A stretch of DNA of 43,267 bases from Planctomycetota bacterium (GTDB lineage: Bacteria > Planctomycetota > Phycisphaerae > Sedimentisphaerales > Anaerobacaceae). Made by a program: the position numbers and the translations under genes. The stretch spans positions 1 to 43,267 of the forward strand of contig JAGLSU010000089.1 in NCBI GenBank assembly GCA_023135935.1. The letters are read 5' to 3'. Below, in pieces: positions 12,188-40,504 of this stretch (the stretch's first letter is position 1; each line of letters opens with the position of its first letter). Under the pieces are notes generated by a model. It was not told where the DNA came from. It saw only the letters and a list, made by a program, of their open reading frames with translations, and ran no database searches.

Positions 12188-12349
12188 CTATGGTATTTTG
12201 AAGATTGTGCCATACTGCAAATTACACTTATATGCAACGAACCCTGCAGTTGCAAGCACAATGCAGAATGCTAATGCGAGAATAACCGTATAAAGGTTAT
12301 TGGGTAATACTGCCTTGTCACCAGGAGTTTTGCCGTTAGGACTCATCAT
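12188..12349 (-). CDS. 53-aa single-TM microprotein (below the ORF-track cutoff)
   Basis: Hand translation gives MMSPNGKTPGDKAVLPNNLYTVILALAFCIVLATAGFVAYKCNLQYGTIFKIP. AGAGG lies 4-5 nt upstream of the ATG. It sits between the coiled-coil gene and mreB on the same strand. Confidence 0.35.
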   Translation of the reverse strand: MMSPNGKTPGDKAVLPNNLYTVILALAFCIVLATAGFVAYKCNLQYGTIFKIP

Positions 12350-12402
12350 TAACCTCTTATTAGTAGCTGCTCATTTATGCCTGAACAGCTTGTGTAAAGT
12401 GT

Positions 12403-17442: not shown

Positions 17443-17793
17443 TTATTGGCTTTGCTCTATTATAAACTCTGCTCTACACTTCGGGCATACCCCTGTGTCA
17501 CCTATCATTTCTCGTGTAGCCCCTTTTAGCGGGCGTCCGCACTCTGGACAATTTACATGTAGTTTTTTGCTCAGATGTATTTCTTTGGTCAGAACAGCTG
17601 CAATTCGCTTGAATCTCTTTATTTTTCCCAGTCTTTTACCGAACTTGTAAATCATTGAACCTATCAACGCACCAATAATTCCCCCTCCAAATGCTCCCGT
17701 ATTACAGAAAAACGATTCCAACCTTTCCTCTTTTTCAGAGTTGATGGAGTTGTTTGCTGGCGTGCTTCCTTCTTTTATTTTTTCTTCTGCCAT
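17443..17793 (-). CDS. small membrane protein with glycine-zipper TM and C-terminal CxxC...CxxC zinc ribbon
   Basis: 116 aa containing GAFGGGIIGALIGSMI, followed by CPECGRPLKG...CPKCRAEF. No family assigned. Confidence 0.55.
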   Translation of the reverse strand: MAEEKIKEGSTPANNSINSEKEERLESFFCNTGAFGGGIIGALIGSMIYKFGKRLGKIKRFKRIAAVLTKEIHLSKKLHVNCPECGRPLKGATREMIGDTGVCPKCRAEFIIEQSQ

Positions 17794-37373: not shown

Positions 37374-37431
37374 TAAAAGTTCTTGATTTCCTTGTTTGTT
37401 TAAAGCATACTACAACCCATGTATGCTCTAT

Positions 37432-37505
37432 GGGCGGTTAGCTCAGCTGGCTAGAGCGCCTGCTCGACACGCAGGAGGTCATCAGTTCAAGTCTGATACT
37501 GCCCA
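37432..37505 (+). tRNA. tRNA-Val (anticodon GAC), with C rather than U at loop position 33
   Basis: A 74-nt cloverleaf. Acceptor gggcggt/actgccc (one G-U pair), D stem gctc/gagc, anticodon stem cctgc/gcagg with loop tcGACac, T arm atcag-ttcaagt-ctgat. No CCA is encoded. Confidence 0.8.
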
Positions 37506-37653
37506 TTAACAAAGCCCCATTATTGACTCAATAGTGGGGTTTTTTAGTTTCAACTTCTTCTTAGTTTTCCCTATTTTTACTTCCGGCGTCCAGCAGGCGT
37601 CCTGCACGTTTCTGCAAAGTAAAATTAGTGGTATTTAGTGAAAGAGTAAAAAG
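37464..37653 (+). repeat. 190-bp direct repeat copy A (attL-like): tRNA-Val 3' half plus 148 bp downstream
   Basis: Aligns with 39785-39974 at a constant offset of 2321 bp with no indels and 13 mismatches (hand count). The first 45 nt are identical. Confidence 0.85.
37515..37545 (+). terminator. rho-independent terminator after tRNA-Val (duplicated at 39836-39866)
   Basis: ccccattattgactcaatagtgggg hairpin followed by TTTTTT. Confidence 0.65.
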
Positions 37654-37740
37654 CTCACTTTAACTGGTTCAGTTTTTGGGGAGCAGACCACCTATTGGAC
37701 AACCTGCGAAATACGTTGCGTAAAAAATTGAAAAATAACA

Positions 37741-38688
37741 CTAATTTTCTATTGCTCCAAAACGGGACCAGTCTTTAGCTGGGCAATAGAGATAATCGGC
37801 TCGCCCCTTAATAGTGGCCAAAAGAATAGGGCCGAAGTGCCTGCTGTCGTAAGAAAGATTACGATTGTCACCCAAAACAAAACAGTGATGTTTTGGAACA
37901 GTTATTTTCTCGAAATTGTGTGACATTTTATCATGTGGAGGTTTGGCTAAGATGATTTTATATTTTGCGTCTCCGCTAACCTCCTCAAAAACTTCTCCAT
38001 TCAATTGTTCTCCCTCAACCTTAATTCTTATATCGTCCAAAGTAGTTTGTGGCAGTTTTTGTCGTTGGAGTTTTTGGTTGTTTATGTAGAGTTGGCCATC
38101 TTTGATTTCTACAGTATCACCAGCAATAGCTACAACTCTTTTTATGAAATTTATATGCCTATTTGTAGGATTGGTGAAAACTACCAGGTCACCTCTTTTA
38201 GGATCAATGCTTCTATAGGCACTTTTGTTCGCTAATATACGATCATCGGGCATGATAGTCGGATAGCATGATGCAACGGGTACTCTGAATGCTTCTAATG
38301 TTTGGTCCCTAAGGTACAAACCACTGCCAATACTGCCACCACTTACAATAAAAAGAAAAAGGAGGTAAACTAGCAAGCTATTATAGTCTTTAAGCTGATA
38401 GTTTGCACTAGCACGTTTAGCAAGGAAGGCTGAATCACACATTGCGATCAGTTGCACTATACCACCAGCAAGTATAAGAAGAACTGTAATCGGCATTAAT
38501 GCTGGTGCTGTGGTGAGATGAAAAAGCCAAATAATAATAGGAAGAGGTAAAATATTCAAAAAGTTGAGCACTAATCCTCTTTTAAGTTTGCCGCAATATA
38601 CTTGACCTAAACCCGGCATGATTAAAGAAAGCATCACCGCGATCCAAATGTGTCTTTTATTATTCAAGTTTATTTCATTAGCATTCAT
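37741..38688 (-). CDS. signal peptidase I (S26) fused to an N-terminal polytopic membrane domain
   Basis: The C-terminal half has the catalytic Ser context (VASCYPTIMPDD), the Lys context (FIKRVVAIAGDTV) and box E (GDNRNLSYDSRHFGPI). The N-terminal ~130 aa carry 3-4 TM helices with a PGLGQVYCGKLKRG motif. Confidence 0.8.
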   Translation of the reverse strand: MNANEINLNNKRHIWIAVMLSLIMPGLGQVYCGKLKRGLVLNFLNILPLPIIIWLFHLTTAPALMPITVLLILAGGIVQLIAMCDSAFLAKRASANYQLKDYNSLLVYLLFLFIVSGGSIGSGLYLRDQTLEAFRVPVASCYPTIMPDDRILANKSAYRSIDPKRGDLVVFTNPTNRHINFIKRVVAIAGDTVEIKDGQLYINNQKLQRQKLPQTTLDDIRIKVEGEQLNGEVFEEVSGDAKYKIILAKPPHDKMSHNFEKITVPKHHCFVLGDNRNLSYDSRHFGPILLATIKGRADYLYCPAKDWSRFGAIEN

Positions 38689-38706
38689 TTTGCTTCTCCT
38701 TAAAAA

Positions 38707-38961
38707 TTATGCATAAAGCATTACATGCAACATAAGTATCAGTCTAATAAAACCAATAATCGCACCAATAGTAATCATGACAGCCTGTACCAACGGACGA
38801 GAGGATATTGCCAAGATTAGCATTTGAATATCCAAAAAAGGCTTACTCTTTTTACGTTCATATTGATATACATGATGCATTACTTTTTCTGCGAAATCTT
38901 CGCCAACTTCAATTTGGCTTCTTTTTGCCTTCCATTCATCATAAGGGTTTTGATTTTTCAT
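38707..38961 (-). CDS. 84-aa single-pass membrane protein, candidate minimal anti-sigma factor
   Basis: Its start overlaps the sigma-factor stop by 4 bp. A cytoplasmic ~45-aa N-terminus is followed by a C-terminal TM segment. The call is by position only. Confidence 0.45.
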   Translation of the reverse strand: MKNQNPYDEWKAKRSQIEVGEDFAEKVMHHVYQYERKKSKPFLDIQMLILAISSRPLVQAVMITIGAIIGFIRLILMLHVMLYA

Positions 38962-39500
38962 ATATCACTTCCTTTAGCTCTTTTAAGAGCCACACGTAAT
39001 TTTTCTTTTGCTCTGCTGACTCTAGATTTTACTGTTCCCAGCTTAATCCCTTCAATTTGAGCTATCTGTTCGTATGGTAATTGCTCAAGCTCAGCCAAGA
39101 CAAATGCCGTTTTGTGTTTTGCTGGCAACTTTCTAAGTGCCTCATCTAGCTGGCAATAAAACTCATTTTGCGTAAGTGTATCTGTCGGGCAATCTGGACT
39201 AGATTTTTCCGGCATATTATCAATTGAAAAATGGCGTTTTTTCTTTATCGCATTTAGACTTTTATTCCTTGCGATAGTAAAAAGCCATGTTGAAAAACTG
39301 CTTAGCGATGGATTATACGAATTAAGCTTCCTGTATGCGTCAAAAAATACCTCTTGAGCAATATCTTCGCAAATATGGTGGTCATCAACTATGTTCTTCA
39401 CCATTTTGATTACCGGCTTTTCATATCTGCATACCAAATCCCTAAAAGATTCTACATCTCCATCTAAAACAGCTTTAATAATTTTGATTTCGTCGATCAT
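38958..39500 (-). CDS. ECF (group IV) RNA polymerase sigma factor
   Basis: The track ORF runs to 39578. Met27 (ATG 39500) gives the usual ECF N-terminus (MIDEIKIIKAVLDGDVESFRDLVCRYEKPV). Region 2 (DIAQEVFFDAYRKL) and region 4 (LAELEQLPYEQIAQIEGIKLGTVKSRVSRAKEKLR) are present. Confidence 0.85.
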   Translation of the reverse strand: MIDEIKIIKAVLDGDVESFRDLVCRYEKPVIKMVKNIVDDHHICEDIAQEVFFDAYRKLNSYNPSLSSFSTWLFTIARNKSLNAIKKKRHFSIDNMPEKSSPDCPTDTLTQNEFYCQLDEALRKLPAKHKTAFVLAELEQLPYEQIAQIEGIKLGTVKSRVSRAKEKLRVALKRAKGSDI

Positions 39501-39784
39501 TAATTTCCCGACACCAAAAACGGTATTTTCTAAGTTATACAACAGACAATCATCATAGTTCCATAATTTTATAGACATAACGACATTTTATAGAGTGGTT
39601 GTTTCACATATGCCTCTGGCGTCCCGTCTGGCGTCTCGCACGTTTCAGTGGCTAGTACTTTTGATGTAGTCACTGAGTACTATTTTAATTGAGTGGTTGT
39701 TTGACTTGTAGAAATTGACCTAGAAATGCTTGTTTTTGAAATAGGAATGCTGGTTGCTGAAGAGAGTTTCAGTATGTGAACGGT

Positions 39785-39974
39785 TCGACACGCAGGAGGT
39801 CATCAGTTCAAGTCTGATACTGCCCATTAGCAAAACCCCATTATTGACTCAATAGTGGGGTTTTTTAGTTTCAACTCCTTCTTAGTCTTCCCTGTTTTCA
39901 CTTCTGGCGTCCTGCGGGCGTCCTGCACGTTTCTGCAATTTAAGATTAGTGGTACTTAGTGAAAGAGTAAAAAG
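39785..39974 (+). repeat. 190-bp direct repeat copy B (attR-like): headless tRNA-Val 3' half plus terminator plus GGCGTCC box
   Basis: See copy A. The sequence upstream of 39785 (…gtgaacggt) has no similarity to the tRNA 5' half. Confidence 0.85.
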
Positions 39975-40088
39975 GTTAGGGGGTTTATGAATTTGAAAAA
40001 TTGGGCTTAATAAGGCAATTTTAGCTAAATTATGATAAATTTCCCTTAAATGGGTGTATGAAAAGCCCTGATATGTCCGATAACTAGT

Positions 40089-40160
40089 GTATGGAAAGTC
40101 CCACACGCCCACGTATGGAAAGTCCTACATACTCATGTATGGAAAGTCCCACGCACCCAA
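40089..40160 (+). repeat. 24-bp tandem repeat x3, each unit containing an ATG
   Basis: The units are gtatggaaagtcccacacgcccac, gtatggaaagtcctacatactcat and gtatggaaagtcccacgcacccaa. They are translated as MESPTRPR / MESPTYSC / MESPTHPS at the head of the IS OrfA. Confidence 0.85.
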
Positions 40161-40504
40161 GCGACTTGACGGATGAGCAATGGGGAACGATTGAAAAGGT
40201 TCTTCCACCGGCCAAACCCGGTGGTCGCCCTCGAACCACCAATTTGCGAGAGGTTATTAACGGGATTCTGTATTTGCTGCGCACAGGTTGCTCGTGGCGA
40301 ACGCTTCCACCCAACTTTCCGTCTTGGCCTACCGTACATGACTACTATCGAAATTTCCGTAAAGACGGGACATTAGAGAAGATTTACAGACTTTTATACG
40401 AACGGCCTCATATCGAATATCGCGAAGCAAGTGACAATGCAACTGTCAAGGAGCAACCGCTTGAGAAAAGCGGAATAGGCCAGGAGTATTCGTTGAATAT
40501 TTGA
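40091..40504 (+). mobile_element. IS5-family (DUF4096-type) transposase OrfA remnant with no DDE-domain part
   Basis: DLTDEQWGTIEKVLPPAKPGGRPRTTNLREVINGILYLLRTGCSWRTLPPNFPSWPTVHDYYRNFRKDGTLEKI is the conserved N-terminal module of IS5/IS427-group transposases. Similarity ends around residue 105. No catalytic ORF and no inverted repeats were recognised. Confidence 0.75.

What the first reader, a model, noticed from the sequence alone, without database searches (positions are those of the whole stretch)
37432..39974. A 2.3-kb islet at tRNA-Val is bounded by 190-bp direct repeats that start exactly at the anticodon loop
Positions 37464-37653 and 39785-39974 align at a fixed 2321-bp offset with no indels and 13 mismatches. 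The first 45 nt (tRNA 3' half plus 3 nt) are identical. Copy A completes an intact tRNA-Val, while copy B is a 3' half with no 5' half. Repeat onset at the first nucleotide of the anticodon loop matches the known anticodon-loop crossover class of tyrosine-integrase elements. The cargo is an A+T-rich three-gene operon (ECF sigma, mini anti-sigma, signal peptidase fusion). There is no integrase inside, and a truncated IS5-family OrfA with odd 24-bp repeats lies just outside copy B. The repeat is far longer than a usual att core and includes the tRNA terminator and a GGCGTCC box. Either the element's attP carried a long tRNA-flank mimic, or the islet moved by homologous recombination or segmental duplication.
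Basis: partly seen in the sequence, partly recalled or inferred. Interest (0 to 1): 0.7.

Follow-up and report, generated by a model that had tools for sequence, protein, structure and literature searches.

The report
Integrase-less islet at tRNA-Val hot spot
A 2.1-kb three-gene block sits between an intact tRNA-Val gene and a leftover copy of that gene's 3' half, the classic scar of integrase-mediated insertion; it has lost (or never had) its own integrase, and is an ordinary though neatly documented kind of genomic islet in an uncultured planctomycete.

Summary
37464-37653 and 39785-39974 are gap-free 190-nt direct repeats with 13 mismatches, and the first 45 nt are identical. The repeat starts at the first anticodon-loop base of tRNA-Val(GAC). 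Copy B is an orphan 3' half.

Comparison with related Sedimentisphaerales/Phycisphaerae MAGs shows that this tRNA-Val, just after a conserved pilus/T2SS operon, is an integration hot spot.
- Five related species have tyrosine integrases or integrase remnants directly after it.
- A sixth (L030) has another integrase-less islet of 5.3 kb whose repeat starts at the identical nucleotide.
- Viral contigs carry orphan tRNA-Val halves abutting integrases.

The boundary is therefore integrase-made. The repeat is long because both copies carry the lineage's own post-tRNA flank (terminator plus GGCGTCC boxes), which is also present in the nearest relative. A third GGCGTCC box lies left of the orphan half, which fits attP arm sites.

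The cargo (ECF sigma, 84-aa membrane protein, membrane-anchored signal peptidase I) is widely conserved in the order and has no fixed neighbours. Its low GC is intrinsic to the operon.

Best reading: a CIME-like, att-bounded remnant formed by tandem accretion or by capture of host flank. It is a known kind of element and of modest interest. No empty site or excised circle was found.

The parts
37432..37505 (+). Intact tRNA-Val(GAC). The 5' part (to 37463) is host sequence. From 37464 it is the left repeat copy (attL-type junction).
   Evidence: ARAGORN. Rfam RF00005, 62 bits. The 5' 49 nt are identical to the nearest relative L096, while the T-arm and acceptor 3' strand differ.
37464..37653 (+). 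Repeat copy A: tRNA 3' half (37464-37505) plus 148 nt of post-tRNA flank.
   Evidence: the repeat finder family D1. Mismatch map.
37464..37470 (+). Anticodon loop TCGACAC: inferred 7-nt crossover (overlap) segment, left copy.
   Evidence: Repeat onset is at T32. Repeat onset is the same in L030.
37511..37543 (+). Intrinsic-terminator-like hairpin of the tRNA, copy A.
   Evidence: Terminator scan: 15-pair stem plus T run. Homologous hairpin in L096.
37585..37612 (+). Double box GGCGTCC-agca-GGCGTCC followed by TGCACGTTTC (copy A): candidate arm-type integrase site or other protein-binding site.
   Evidence: Related boxes with 11-nt spacing lie at +84/+88 in L036, L010 and L030.
37741..38688 (-). 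Cargo gene 3: signal peptidase I (S26) with an N-terminal extension of about 120 aa that has several hydrophobic stretches (by inspection). Catalytic boxes are intact (S140 in SCYPT, K183 in KRVVAIAGD, GDNRNLSYDSR at 273).
   Evidence: Pfam PF10502 7.6e-40 and TIGR02227. Motifs. Of 2420 proteins with E <= 0.001, the best 120 listed are near-full-length homologues at 66-83% identity.
38707..38961 (-). Cargo gene 2: 84-aa membrane protein, presumed minimal anti-sigma factor (inferred from its position).
   Evidence: No family hit. An 84-85-aa ORF sits in the same position in all operon homologues.
38958..39500 (-). Cargo gene 1: ECF sigma factor, 180 aa from the start at 39500.
   Evidence: Pfam Sigma70_r2 and r4_2, TIGR02937. 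Gene callers and all homologues give 180 aa.
39534..39563 (-). Promoter-like block TGGAACT...GTTGTATAAC conserved upstream of the operon in relatives (probable autoregulated ECF promoter; inferred).
   Evidence: Upstream comparison with L088, L090 and L091. Coordinates.
39579..39784 (+). Islet right-end spacer, with no homology to the operon flanks of relatives: candidate P arm of the former attP.
   Evidence: It contains the third GGCGTCC box and the 98-nt-spaced repeat AGTGGTTGTTT.
39618..39646 (+). Third copy of the box: GGCGTCC-cgtct-GGCGTCTCGCACGTTTC, 139-167 nt left of the orphan half.
   Evidence: 17-mer search with up to 3 mismatches: 3 hits against 0.09 expected.. Arm sharing.
39785..39974 (+). 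Repeat copy B: orphan tRNA-Val 3' half (39785-39826) plus 148 nt of post-tRNA flank (attR-type, or P-O-P'-type, junction).
39832..39864 (+). Terminator-like hairpin, copy B.
39906..39933 (+). Double GGCGTCC box, copy B.
40049..40485 (+). 5' fragment of an IS5-family (DUF4096 OrfA) insertion sequence. The left end follows TTA at 40046-40048. Four copies of the terminal-repeat core lie at 40056, 40089, 40113 and 40137. The right half (OrfB, right end) is deleted.
   Evidence: Pfam PF13340 and NF033580 positions 2-101 of 258. Comparison with the 854-bp IS in L098/L103.

Best explanation
The islet (37654-39784) is the remnant of DNA inserted by a tyrosine integrase into the anticodon loop of tRNA-Val(GAC). 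In this planctomycete lineage that gene lies just after a conserved pilus/T2SS operon and is a recurrent integration hot spot.

WHAT IS SHOWN
- Integration split the tRNA. The incoming DNA supplied a replacement 3' half (copy A), and the displaced half remained at the far end (copy B).
- The islet now has no integrase. It keeps both att-type ends but only a three-gene cargo, so it is a CIME-like, integrase-less element.
- The repeat is 190 nt, not about 45 nt, because both copies also carry the lineage's own post-tRNA flank: terminator hairpin plus a GGCGTCC double box.

WHAT IS INFERRED
- Three routes could give the long repeat, and they are not resolved here. (a) The islet integrated next to the attL left by an earlier, related element (tandem accretion), whose body was later lost through the IS5-associated deletion to the right of copy B. 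(b) An element in a sister lineage captured host flank by aberrant excision. (c) A circle entered by a Campbell-type crossover through the flank homology.
- The GGCGTCC boxes lie about 121-148 nt right of the crossover and about 139-167 nt left of it. They are proposed to be arm-type integrase-binding sites.
- The cargo is a self-contained ECF sigma / small anti-sigma / membrane-anchored signal peptidase module with its own promoter. It is widespread in the order and appears here as captured cargo.
For: - Repeat onset is exactly at T32 of the anticodon loop, with unrelated sequence to the left.
- L030, a different species, has at the same locus a 46-nt repeat starting at the same base and enclosing a 5.3-kb integrase-less islet. 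Its two tRNA halves differ by compensatory T-stem changes, so they come from different lineages.
- Integrases or their remnants lie directly 3' of this tRNA-Val in L032, L068, L036, L026 and L039. UmuDC-like and restriction-like ORFs (judged from N-terminal sequence only) lie there in L028 and L010, and a Pfam-verified HTH/S24 repressor in L054.
- Viral contigs L124 and L127 and metagenome contig L093 show attP-type orphan tRNA-Val halves abutting integrases 48-51% identical to each other.
- gspF-pp1-pp2-tRNA-Val synteny is conserved in about 24 species. None has the operon or aroE within the downstream sequence available, up to 10 kb.
- There are 0 mismatches in the 45 tRNA-proximal nt against 13 in the other 145 nt (P = 0.015 under uniform divergence). 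This is expected if both halves were functional tRNA parts until the insertion.
- The post-tRNA flank is homologous in the nearest relative L096. A and B share a 13-nt and an 11-nt indel relative to L096, so they are sisters.
- The box 17-mer is found 3 times against 0.09 expected, on both sides of the core. Related 11-nt-spaced GCGT boxes lie at +79 to +88 in L036 (which has an integrase), L010 and L030. Boxes of 7 nt or more occur in about 9 of 21 post-tRNA regions, against a 4.4% background. L030 repeats an 80-nt box-bearing block in both arms.
- The literature establishes anticodon-centred attP as the commonest class and describes tandem arrays (PMC4383910), tDNA island repeats of 15-221 bp (bioRxiv 10.1101/2020.11.02.365908), and the CIME and accretion model (PMC5704250).
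Against: - There is no integrase or integrase remnant in the islet or anywhere in the window (best tblastn E = 0.16).
- No empty site, excised circle or integrase-bearing version of this islet was found.
- The sequence left of the orphan half (ACGGT) does not mimic the 5' anticodon stem. Real attPs in L124 and L127 do.
- The flank looks vertically inherited, not element-specific.
- The operon is core-like in its distribution and divergence, and its low GC is intrinsic.
- In L036 the GGCGTC boxes lie inside the integrase coding tail, so the similarity could be a coincidence.
- Contig L109 carries a B|A hybrid repeat. That needs homologous exchange, not an integrase crossover.
Confidence: 0.6

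Rival explanations
1. Insertion by homologous recombination alone. A circular or linear DNA from a close relative carried the tRNA-Val 3' region, its flank and the operon. It entered by a RecA-dependent (Campbell-type) crossover through the 190-nt homology. No integrase was involved, and the anticodon-loop boundary is a coincidence.
For: - The homology is long (190 nt) and consists of genuine lineage flank.
- No integrase is present.
- Contig L109 shows a B|A hybrid repeat whose switch point lies in the 22-nt identical stretch, as expected for homologous exchange between the copies.
Against: - The left boundary is at the same base as in the independent L030 islet, and this is the canonical anticodon-loop sublocation (PMC4383910).
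- The locus is demonstrably used by integrases in five relatives.
- This model gives no account of how the donor molecule came to begin precisely at T32.
Confidence: 0.17
2. In-situ tandem duplication of a 2,321-bp segment running from the anticodon loop through the operon. An IS5 insertion then deleted most of the second copy, leaving only its first 190 nt.
For: - The offset is fixed with no gaps.
- A truncated IS with its right half deleted lies 70 nt past copy B.
- A and B are each other's closest relatives.
Against: - The IS left end is 70 nt beyond the end of similarity, and those 70 nt do not match the sequence after copy A.
- Having 0 of 45 mismatches in an unselected orphan half against 13 of 145 elsewhere is unlikely (P = 0.015).
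- 9% divergence would require a long-lived tandem duplicate.
- The breakpoint coinciding with T32 is unexplained, and L030 shows the same breakpoint with halves from different lineages.
Confidence: 0.07
3. The GGCGTCC boxes are not recombination sites. They are host regulatory sites, for example for a response regulator that binds 7-4-7 direct repeats. They would control a rightward promoter after the tRNA terminator and, at the third copy, the sigma operon. Their presence in both repeats would then simply reflect duplicated host flank.
For: - The 7+4+7 direct-repeat layout has one-helical-turn spacing.
- The first box is present in the L096 flank, which appears to be vertically inherited.
- The third copy lies about 55-85 nt upstream of the operon's promoter block.
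Against: - The scan calls no sigma-70-type promoter next to the boxes.
- No boxes occur at operon homologues in other genomes.
- Related boxes sit beside an integrase in L036 and in both arms of the L030 islet.
Confidence: 0.25
4. Assembly artefact: the orphan half and the islet result from mis-joining strain variants at a repeat.
For: - Short contigs break at or inside the repeat (L007 ends at 37461; L108 spans 39820-37526).
- Two short contigs (L109, L110) show discordant junctions.
Against: - The full arrangement is 100% identical in ERZ23498458, ERZ23498405 and MAG GCA_030637725.1.
- Both junctions are covered separately in ERZ23498471.
Confidence: 0.02

Closest known systems
tDNA-integrated genomic islands with an anticodon-centred attachment site (Islander class 'A'; Williams 2002 sublocation scheme, as summarised in PMC4383910)
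   Same: An intact tRNA is regenerated by element-borne sequence. A displaced 3' fragment lies in the same orientation at the far end. The identity block starts at the anticodon loop and runs through the 3' end. Occupancy of the site varies among relatives.
   Different: There is no integrase gene. The islet is only 2.1 kb, well below typical islands. The identity block extends 148 nt beyond the tRNA into lineage-specific flank.
CIMEs (cis-mobilizable elements) and tandem accretion of ICE/IME-related elements (Pavlovic et al. 2004 and Bellanger et al. 2011, as reviewed in PMC5704250)
   Same: The element retains attL and attR but lacks integration and transfer genes. The proposed origin is decay plus site-specific accretion at a target-gene 3' end. 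The right junction looks like P-O-P' (box-bearing sequence on both sides of the orphan half).
   Different: CIMEs are defined in Firmicutes ICE families and have demonstrated cis-mobilisation. Here no parental ICE/IME, no partner element and no mobility are shown. The presumed partner is missing, replaced by a truncated IS.
Attachment sites with long identity segments, such as tDNA islands with direct repeats up to 221 bp (bioRxiv 10.1101/2020.11.02.365908). From memory, unverified here: phage HP1, whose attP/attB common segment is about 180 bp and covers tRNA sequence.
   Same: The identity extends well beyond a minimal core, so that host tRNA-locus sequence is restored after integration.
   Different: Here the extension is 91% identical, not identical. 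It can be shown to be the host genus's own flank, with the two copies sister to each other.
ECF sigma / anti-sigma modules activated by signal-peptidase site-1 cleavage (sigmaV-RsiV of Bacillus subtilis; PMC4183432, PMC6066255)
   Same: An ECF sigma factor and a membrane anti-sigma candidate are functionally linked to a type I signal peptidase.
   Different: Here the peptidase is encoded in the operon and fused to a polytopic membrane domain. The 84-aa partner has no recognisable anti-sigma or receptor domain. No experimental link exists, so this is a resemblance only.

Membership tests
tRNA-gene-integrated genomic island (Islander criteria) | Intact tDNA plus a cognate displaced tDNA fragment in the same orientation on the same replicon | tested here: met
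   tRNA-Val at 37432-37505. Orphan 3' half at 39785-39826, same strand.
tRNA-gene-integrated genomic island (Islander criteria) | Crossover at a canonical sublocation (anticodon loop, T loop or 3' junction) | tested here: met
   Identity starts at T32 of loop TCGACAC. The start is the same in L030.
tRNA-gene-integrated genomic island (Islander criteria) | Integrase gene inside the island | tested here: not met
   Pfam/NCBIfam of the three cargo ORFs. tblastn with four tRNA-Val-associated integrases gives no hit in the window.
tRNA-gene-integrated genomic island (Islander criteria) | Variable presence: empty site in related genomes | tested here: inconclusive
   The operon is absent downstream of tRNA-Val in about 20 related species. 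However, the nearest relative is only 78% identical in nucleotides, and no conspecific empty site was found.
CIME (cis-mobilizable element) | Retains attL and attR | tested here: met
   Both repeat copies are intact through the core and the tRNA part (45 of 45 identical). Box-bearing sequence lies on the inner side of both ends.
CIME (cis-mobilizable element) | Lacks integration and transfer genes | tested here: met
   The only genes are sigma, the 84-aa protein and the signal peptidase.
CIME (cis-mobilizable element) | Derived from an ICE/IME by deletion, and mobilisable in cis after accretion with a related element | not testable with these tools
   No parental element or partner was found. 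This needs whole-genome data, read-level data or experiments.
IS-bounded composite transposon | Cargo flanked by two copies of the same IS | tested here: not met
   There is a single truncated IS5-family fragment, outside the repeat on one side only.
Dispersed repeat / MITE | The unit recurs at unrelated loci | tested here: not met
   There are no further copies in the window or in the other fetched loci (1.3 Mb in all when tested); the only matches outside the window are re-assemblies of the window's own locus. Exact sub-patterns gave no viral-contig hits.
Lambda-type attP with arm-type integrase sites | Repeated short boxes in both arms flanking the core, bound by the integrase N-terminal domain | tested here: inconclusive
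   Boxes lie on both sides of the core, and related boxes occur in L036, L010 and L030. Binding has not been tested. In L036 the boxes are inside coding sequence.

The most novel reading that the evidence does not exclude
The islet is an active, integrase-less satellite. Its two box-bearing arms are recognised in trans by tRNA-Val-specific integrases of co-resident elements. This lets a self-contained ECF-sigma / anti-sigma / signal-peptidase regulatory module hop between Sedimentisphaerales genomes, which would explain why this conserved operon has no fixed chromosomal neighbourhood. The B|A hybrid repeat (L109) and the alternative left junction (L110) in sister samples would be traces of ongoing excision or rearrangement.
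Probability: 0.12. Interest if true: 0.55.

Novelty: new member of a known kind. Interest (0 to 1): 0.3.

Why it matters
- It gives a clean, comparative example of tRNA-gene-targeted integration in Sedimentisphaerales/Phycisphaerae, an uncultured and poorly studied planctomycete group.
- It identifies one specific tRNA-Val(GAC) locus as a lineage-wide hot spot, with at least two integrase families and two integrase-less islets.
- It shows how a repeat much longer than an att core can arise without invoking mimicry: both copies carry the lineage's own flank.
- It offers candidate arm-type sites (GGCGTCC boxes) that could be tested.
- For annotation, it warns that integrase-requiring island finders will miss such islets, and that the orphan half should not be called a tRNA.
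- The cargo hints at a dedicated signal peptidase coupled to ECF sigma signalling, which may merit separate study.
- None of this overturns current understanding.

Tried and rejected
- **Chimeric tRNA.** The G5·U68 wobble, unique among 24 relatives, first suggested a foreign 3' half. I rejected this as evidence because copy B has the same U68 and an identical full tRNA exists in another context (L092).
- **Low G+C as a foreign signal.** Rejected. The operon is below host GC in all four relatives examined.
- **IS end defining the repeat's right boundary.** Rejected. The IS left end is at about 40049.
- **ECF promoter in the GGCGTCC/GAAAC motif.** Replaced by the conserved TGGAACT...GTTGTATAAC block.
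- **Searches for the unit elsewhere.** Viral-contig scans with the T-arm 29-mer and the box 17-mer gave 0 hits. The metagenome scan with the T-arm 25-mer gave 4 loci, none with the flank or an empty site.
- **Integrase remnants in the window.** None found.
- **Close IS copies for defining ends by DNA identity.** None exist (best OrfA match 62%), so I used a 62%-related multi-copy IS.
- **Rfam.** No RNA family other than the tRNA.
- **Counts of 8-mers shared between arms in bona fide attPs (L124, L127, L093).** These do not exceed shuffles, so that test does not generalise the arm-box idea.
- **Williams 2002 (PMC100330).** The paper could not be read. Its scheme is cited only through PMC4383910 and bioRxiv 10.1101/2020.11.02.365908.


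Full report
**1. Observation**

The window contains one tRNA-Val(GAC) at 37431/2-37505/6 (ARAGORN; Rfam RF00005). There is a single pair of 190-nt direct repeats, 37464-37653 and 39785-39974. They are 93% identical, gap-free and offset by 2321 nt. The 13 mismatches all lie at unit positions 46-171, so the first 45 nt (tRNA 3' part plus 3 nt) are identical.

The repeat starts at T32, the first base of the anticodon loop TCGACAC. The sequences to its left are unrelated: GCGCCTGC| in copy A and GTGAACGGT| in copy B. Copy B is not called as a tRNA. The unit is found nowhere else in the window.

The arrangement is 100% identical in assemblies of three different samples and in MAG GCA_030637725.1. 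Both junctions are also covered separately in a fourth sample.

**2. Gene content**

All three islet genes are on the minus strand:
- An ECF sigma factor.
- An 84-aa membrane protein.
- A 315-aa S26 signal peptidase I with an N-terminal extension of about 120 aa that has several hydrophobic stretches (by inspection) and intact catalytic boxes.

Upstream of the tRNA is a pilM-N-O / gspE / pilT / gspF / pseudopilin operon. Downstream of copy B are an IS5-family OrfA fragment and then aroE.

**3. The cargo is a conserved module**

The peptidase search returned 2420 proteins with E <= 0.001. The best 120 listed are near-full-length homologues at 66-83% identity. In L088-L091 and L104 the same sigma(180 aa)-84/85 aa-peptidase(315 aa) operon recurs. 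Each time it has different neighbours (other ECF pairs, FtsW/MurJ, a sulfatase) and no tRNA nearby.

A promoter-like block, TGGAACT...GTTGTATAAC, is shared upstream of the 180-aa start. In the window it lies at 39534-39563, which places the true sigma start at 39500.

The nearest relative of the window's chromosome (L096, GCA_030639585.1) is 78% identical in nucleotides, with core proteins 77-88% identical. The operon's best hits (82-83%) are therefore no closer than expected for vertical descent. The operon's G+C is below that of its host contig in every relative examined, so its A+T-richness here is not evidence of foreign origin.

**4. The tRNA-Val locus is an integration hot spot**

A scan of species-representative genomes with GspF returned 80 loci. 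About 24 Sedimentisphaerales/Phycisphaerae species keep the order gspF, pseudopilin, pseudopilin, tRNA-Val(GAC). None has the operon or aroE within the downstream sequence available (up to 10 kb). What follows the tRNA differs everywhere:
- L032 and L068 have a plus-strand tyrosine integrase starting about 100 nt after the tRNA (Pfam).
- L036 has a full-length minus-strand integrase whose C-terminus abuts the tRNA.
- L026 and L039 have integrase homology at the same place.
- L028 and L010 have ORFs that look UmuDC-like and type III restriction-like from their N-terminal sequences (not family-searched). L054 has a Pfam-verified HTH/S24 repressor.

L030 has a second orphan half. Its repeat 12328-12373 / 17678-17723 starts at exactly the same base (|TCGACAC) and encloses a 5.3-kb islet (ABC-2 transporter plus two FG-GAP proteins) with no integrase. 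Its two halves differ by compensatory T-stem changes (ACAGG/CCTGT against AGAGG/CCTCT). They are therefore genuine tRNA halves from different lineages and not an in-situ duplication.

Independent attP-type configurations exist in which an orphan tRNA-Val 3' fragment abuts an integrase C-terminus. They occur in viral contigs L124 and L127 (G+C 0.44 and 0.49) and in metagenome contig L093. Those integrases are 48-51% identical to each other and 24-27% identical to L036's.

This matches the established anticodon-centred class of tDNA integration, which covers 2083 of 3919 Islander islands; tandem arrays are also known (PMC4383910).

**5. Why the repeat is 190 nt**

In L096 the tRNA is followed by a homologous terminator hairpin and then TTAGTCTTTCCTATTTTCACTTCCGGCGTCCAGCA. 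That matches the first 100 nt or so of the window's post-tRNA unit at roughly genome-wide divergence. The differences include a 13-nt indel (flanked by TTAG) and an 11-nt indel: L096 has one GGCGTCC box where the window has two.

Copies A and B share both indels and are 91% identical, so they are sisters relative to L096. At the seven sites that L096 can polarise, A matches L096 at five and B at two.

The flank is thus the lineage's own sequence and not a mimic. One copy is resident. The other diverged from it more recently than the split between the window and L096.

Having 0 of 45 mismatches in the tRNA part against 13 of 145 in the flank (P = 0.015) fits two sequences that were each under tRNA constraint until they were joined. 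It fits poorly with an old in-situ duplication in which the orphan half drifted.

Repeats of 15-221 bp are documented for tDNA islands (bioRxiv 10.1101/2020.11.02.365908), so the length is unusual but has precedent.

**6. GGCGTCC boxes**

The 17-mer GGCGTCCTGCACGTTTC (up to 3 mismatches allowed) occurs three times in the window against 0.09 expected. The sites are in copy A, in copy B, and at 39630-39646 within the 206-nt spacer left of the orphan half. In each case it is preceded by another GGCGTCC 11-12 nt upstream.

Box-bearing sequence therefore lies on both sides of the core at the right junction, and on the inner side of the left junction. This is the layout of attP arms.

Related boxes with 11-nt spacing occur 84-88 nt after tRNA-Val in L036 (GGCGTCA, next to an integrase), L010 (CCAGCGTC) and L030 (CGTAAA). 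L030 repeats an 80-nt box-bearing block in both arms. Tandem boxes of 7 nt or more at 10-12-nt spacing occur in about 9 of 21 post-tRNA regions, against 4.4% of random 200-nt segments. A second motif, GTGAGTTGG, is also enriched after the tRNA in three species.

I read these as candidate arm-type integrase sites, with moderate confidence. Three points count against this:
- In L036 the boxes lie in the integrase coding tail.
- The first box is present in the apparently vertical L096 flank.
- Shared 8-mers do not exceed shuffles in the true attPs L124, L127 and L093.

A host regulatory role is the main rival.

**7. Right-hand neighbourhood**

A related 854-bp IS (L098/L103) has terminal repeats with the core GTGTATGAAAAGT and a TTA duplication. 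By comparison:
- The window's IS starts at about 40049, after TTA at 40046-48.
- IS homology stops at about position 408 of 854, near window position 40485.

The IS is therefore a 5' fragment, and DNA to its right has been deleted. This is compatible with loss of a neighbouring element, including its integrase. The IS does not set the end of copy B.

**8. Mechanism**

Shown:
- An att-type pair of repeats with an anticodon-loop boundary.
- Recurrent use of this site by integrases.
- The absence of an integrase here.
- The flank being the lineage's own sequence.

Inferred:
- The islet was placed by a tyrosine integrase and is now a CIME-like remnant, as defined in PMC5704250.
- The long repeat arose by one of three routes: tandem accretion next to an earlier related element's attL, capture of host flank by aberrant excision in a sister lineage, or Campbell-type entry through the flank homology.

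These three sub-routes cannot be separated with the data available.

**9. Rivals**

- Homologous recombination without any integrase does not explain why two independent islets share the T32 boundary.
- Tandem duplication followed by IS-mediated deletion conflicts with the 70-nt non-homologous gap before the IS and with the mismatch distribution.
- An assembly artefact is excluded by the independent assemblies.

**10. Unresolved leads**

- Contig L109, from another sample, carries five copy-B SNPs to the left of the 22-nt identical stretch GGCGTCCTGCACGTTTCTGCAA, then copy-A SNPs and the A-side flank to the right. This B|A hybrid is expected from homologous exchange (circle junction, tandem junction or gene conversion), or from a repeat-induced assembly chimera.
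- Contig L110 joins the islet, from 37559 rightward, to unrelated sequence with a truncated NifU-like start.
- Neither lead could be followed further.
- No empty site or excised circle was detected.

**11. Verdict**

The integrase-class reading of the boundary is supported by comparative evidence.

This is a new member of a known kind: an integrase-less, att-bounded tDNA islet at a hot spot. It is of modest interest. Its value is mainly as a documented case in an understudied phylum, and as a source of testable candidate arm sites and a possibly mobile sigma/peptidase module.

Noticed in passing
window 37464-37470; all tRNA-Val(GAC) genes in L008-L068 and L096: The anticodon loop reads TCGACAC, which puts C (not the near-universal U) at position 33. 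This holds in the window and in all 24 or so related species.
   Followed up: no
window 37432-37505; L092 1809-1883: The window's tRNA-Val has a G5·U68 wobble (3' strand ACTGCCCA) and a distinct T-stem (ATCAG/CTGAT). The 24 species relatives and L096 all have G5-C68. An identical tRNA, including U68, occurs in an unrelated context in a subsurface metagenome.
   Followed up: partly
window 40043-40159 and 40049-40485: The 24-bp tandem repeats at the start of the IS5 OrfA ORF are reiterated copies of the IS terminal inverted-repeat core (GTRTGRAAAGYCC, four copies). They create a spurious MESPT... N-terminal extension. The IS is a 5' fragment lacking OrfB and the right end.
   Followed up: yes
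L109 (ERZ23498528), equivalent to window 37564-38972: The repeat in this contig is a B|A hybrid. It has copy-B SNPs left of GGCGTCCTGCACGTTTCTGCAA, and copy-A SNPs plus the A flank to the right. It could be a recombinant junction, a gene-conversion allele or an assembly chimera.
   Followed up: partly
L110 (ERZ23498442), equivalent to window 37559-38749 plus 175 nt: A near-identical SPase region (1 mismatch) is joined at TCTTAG (37558/9) to unrelated sequence that starts a NifU/IscU-like ORF (MWDYTNKVMDHFRNPRNVG...). The join is at the same TTAG where L096 lacks 13 nt. It may be an alternative context of the islet or a chimera.
   Followed up: partly
L030 12296-17723: A second integrase-less islet (5.3 kb; ABC-2 transporter and two FG-GAP proteins) lies at the same tRNA-Val in another species, next to dnaA. 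It has 46-nt repeats starting at the same base, and an 80-nt block with tandem boxes in both arms.
   Followed up: yes
L124 479-1552; L127 1-690; L093 927-1941; L036 12382-13700: A family of tyrosine integrases is encoded on the strand opposite to a tRNA-Val 3' fragment, with the C-terminus abutting or overlapping it. Members occur in viral contigs, a GC-rich metagenome contig and a Sedimentisphaerales MAG.
   Followed up: partly
window 38958-39578: The mechanical 206-aa sigma ORF includes a conserved promoter-like block (39534-39563). The real start is most likely 39500 (180 aa), as in all homologues.
   Followed up: yes
window 37741-39563; L088, L090, L091, L104: The ECF sigma / 84-aa protein / membrane-anchored S26 peptidase operon is conserved across the order but has different neighbours in every genome. 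L088/L089 carry an extra alpha/beta-hydrolase gene inserted before the peptidase. This suggests a dedicated signal peptidase in ECF signalling, by analogy with RsiV site-1 cleavage (PMC4183432).
   Followed up: partly
window 37545-37562 and 37585-37606 compared with the L096 tail: Relative to L096, both window copies carry a 13-nt insertion flanked by TTAG direct repeats and an 11-nt tandem duplication that turns one GGCGTCC box into two.
   Followed up: partly
L020, L032, L036, L054 (tRNA-Val 3' halves); L020, L032, L036, L068 (first bases after the tRNA): L020, L032, L036 and L054, which are not especially close by GspF identity, share an identical tRNA-Val 3' half (GTTGGTTCAAGTCCAATACCGCCCA). 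L020, L032, L036 and L068 share the same first bases after the tRNA (TTTCCCA/TAA). This hints that element-borne 3' halves are spreading between lineages.
   Followed up: no
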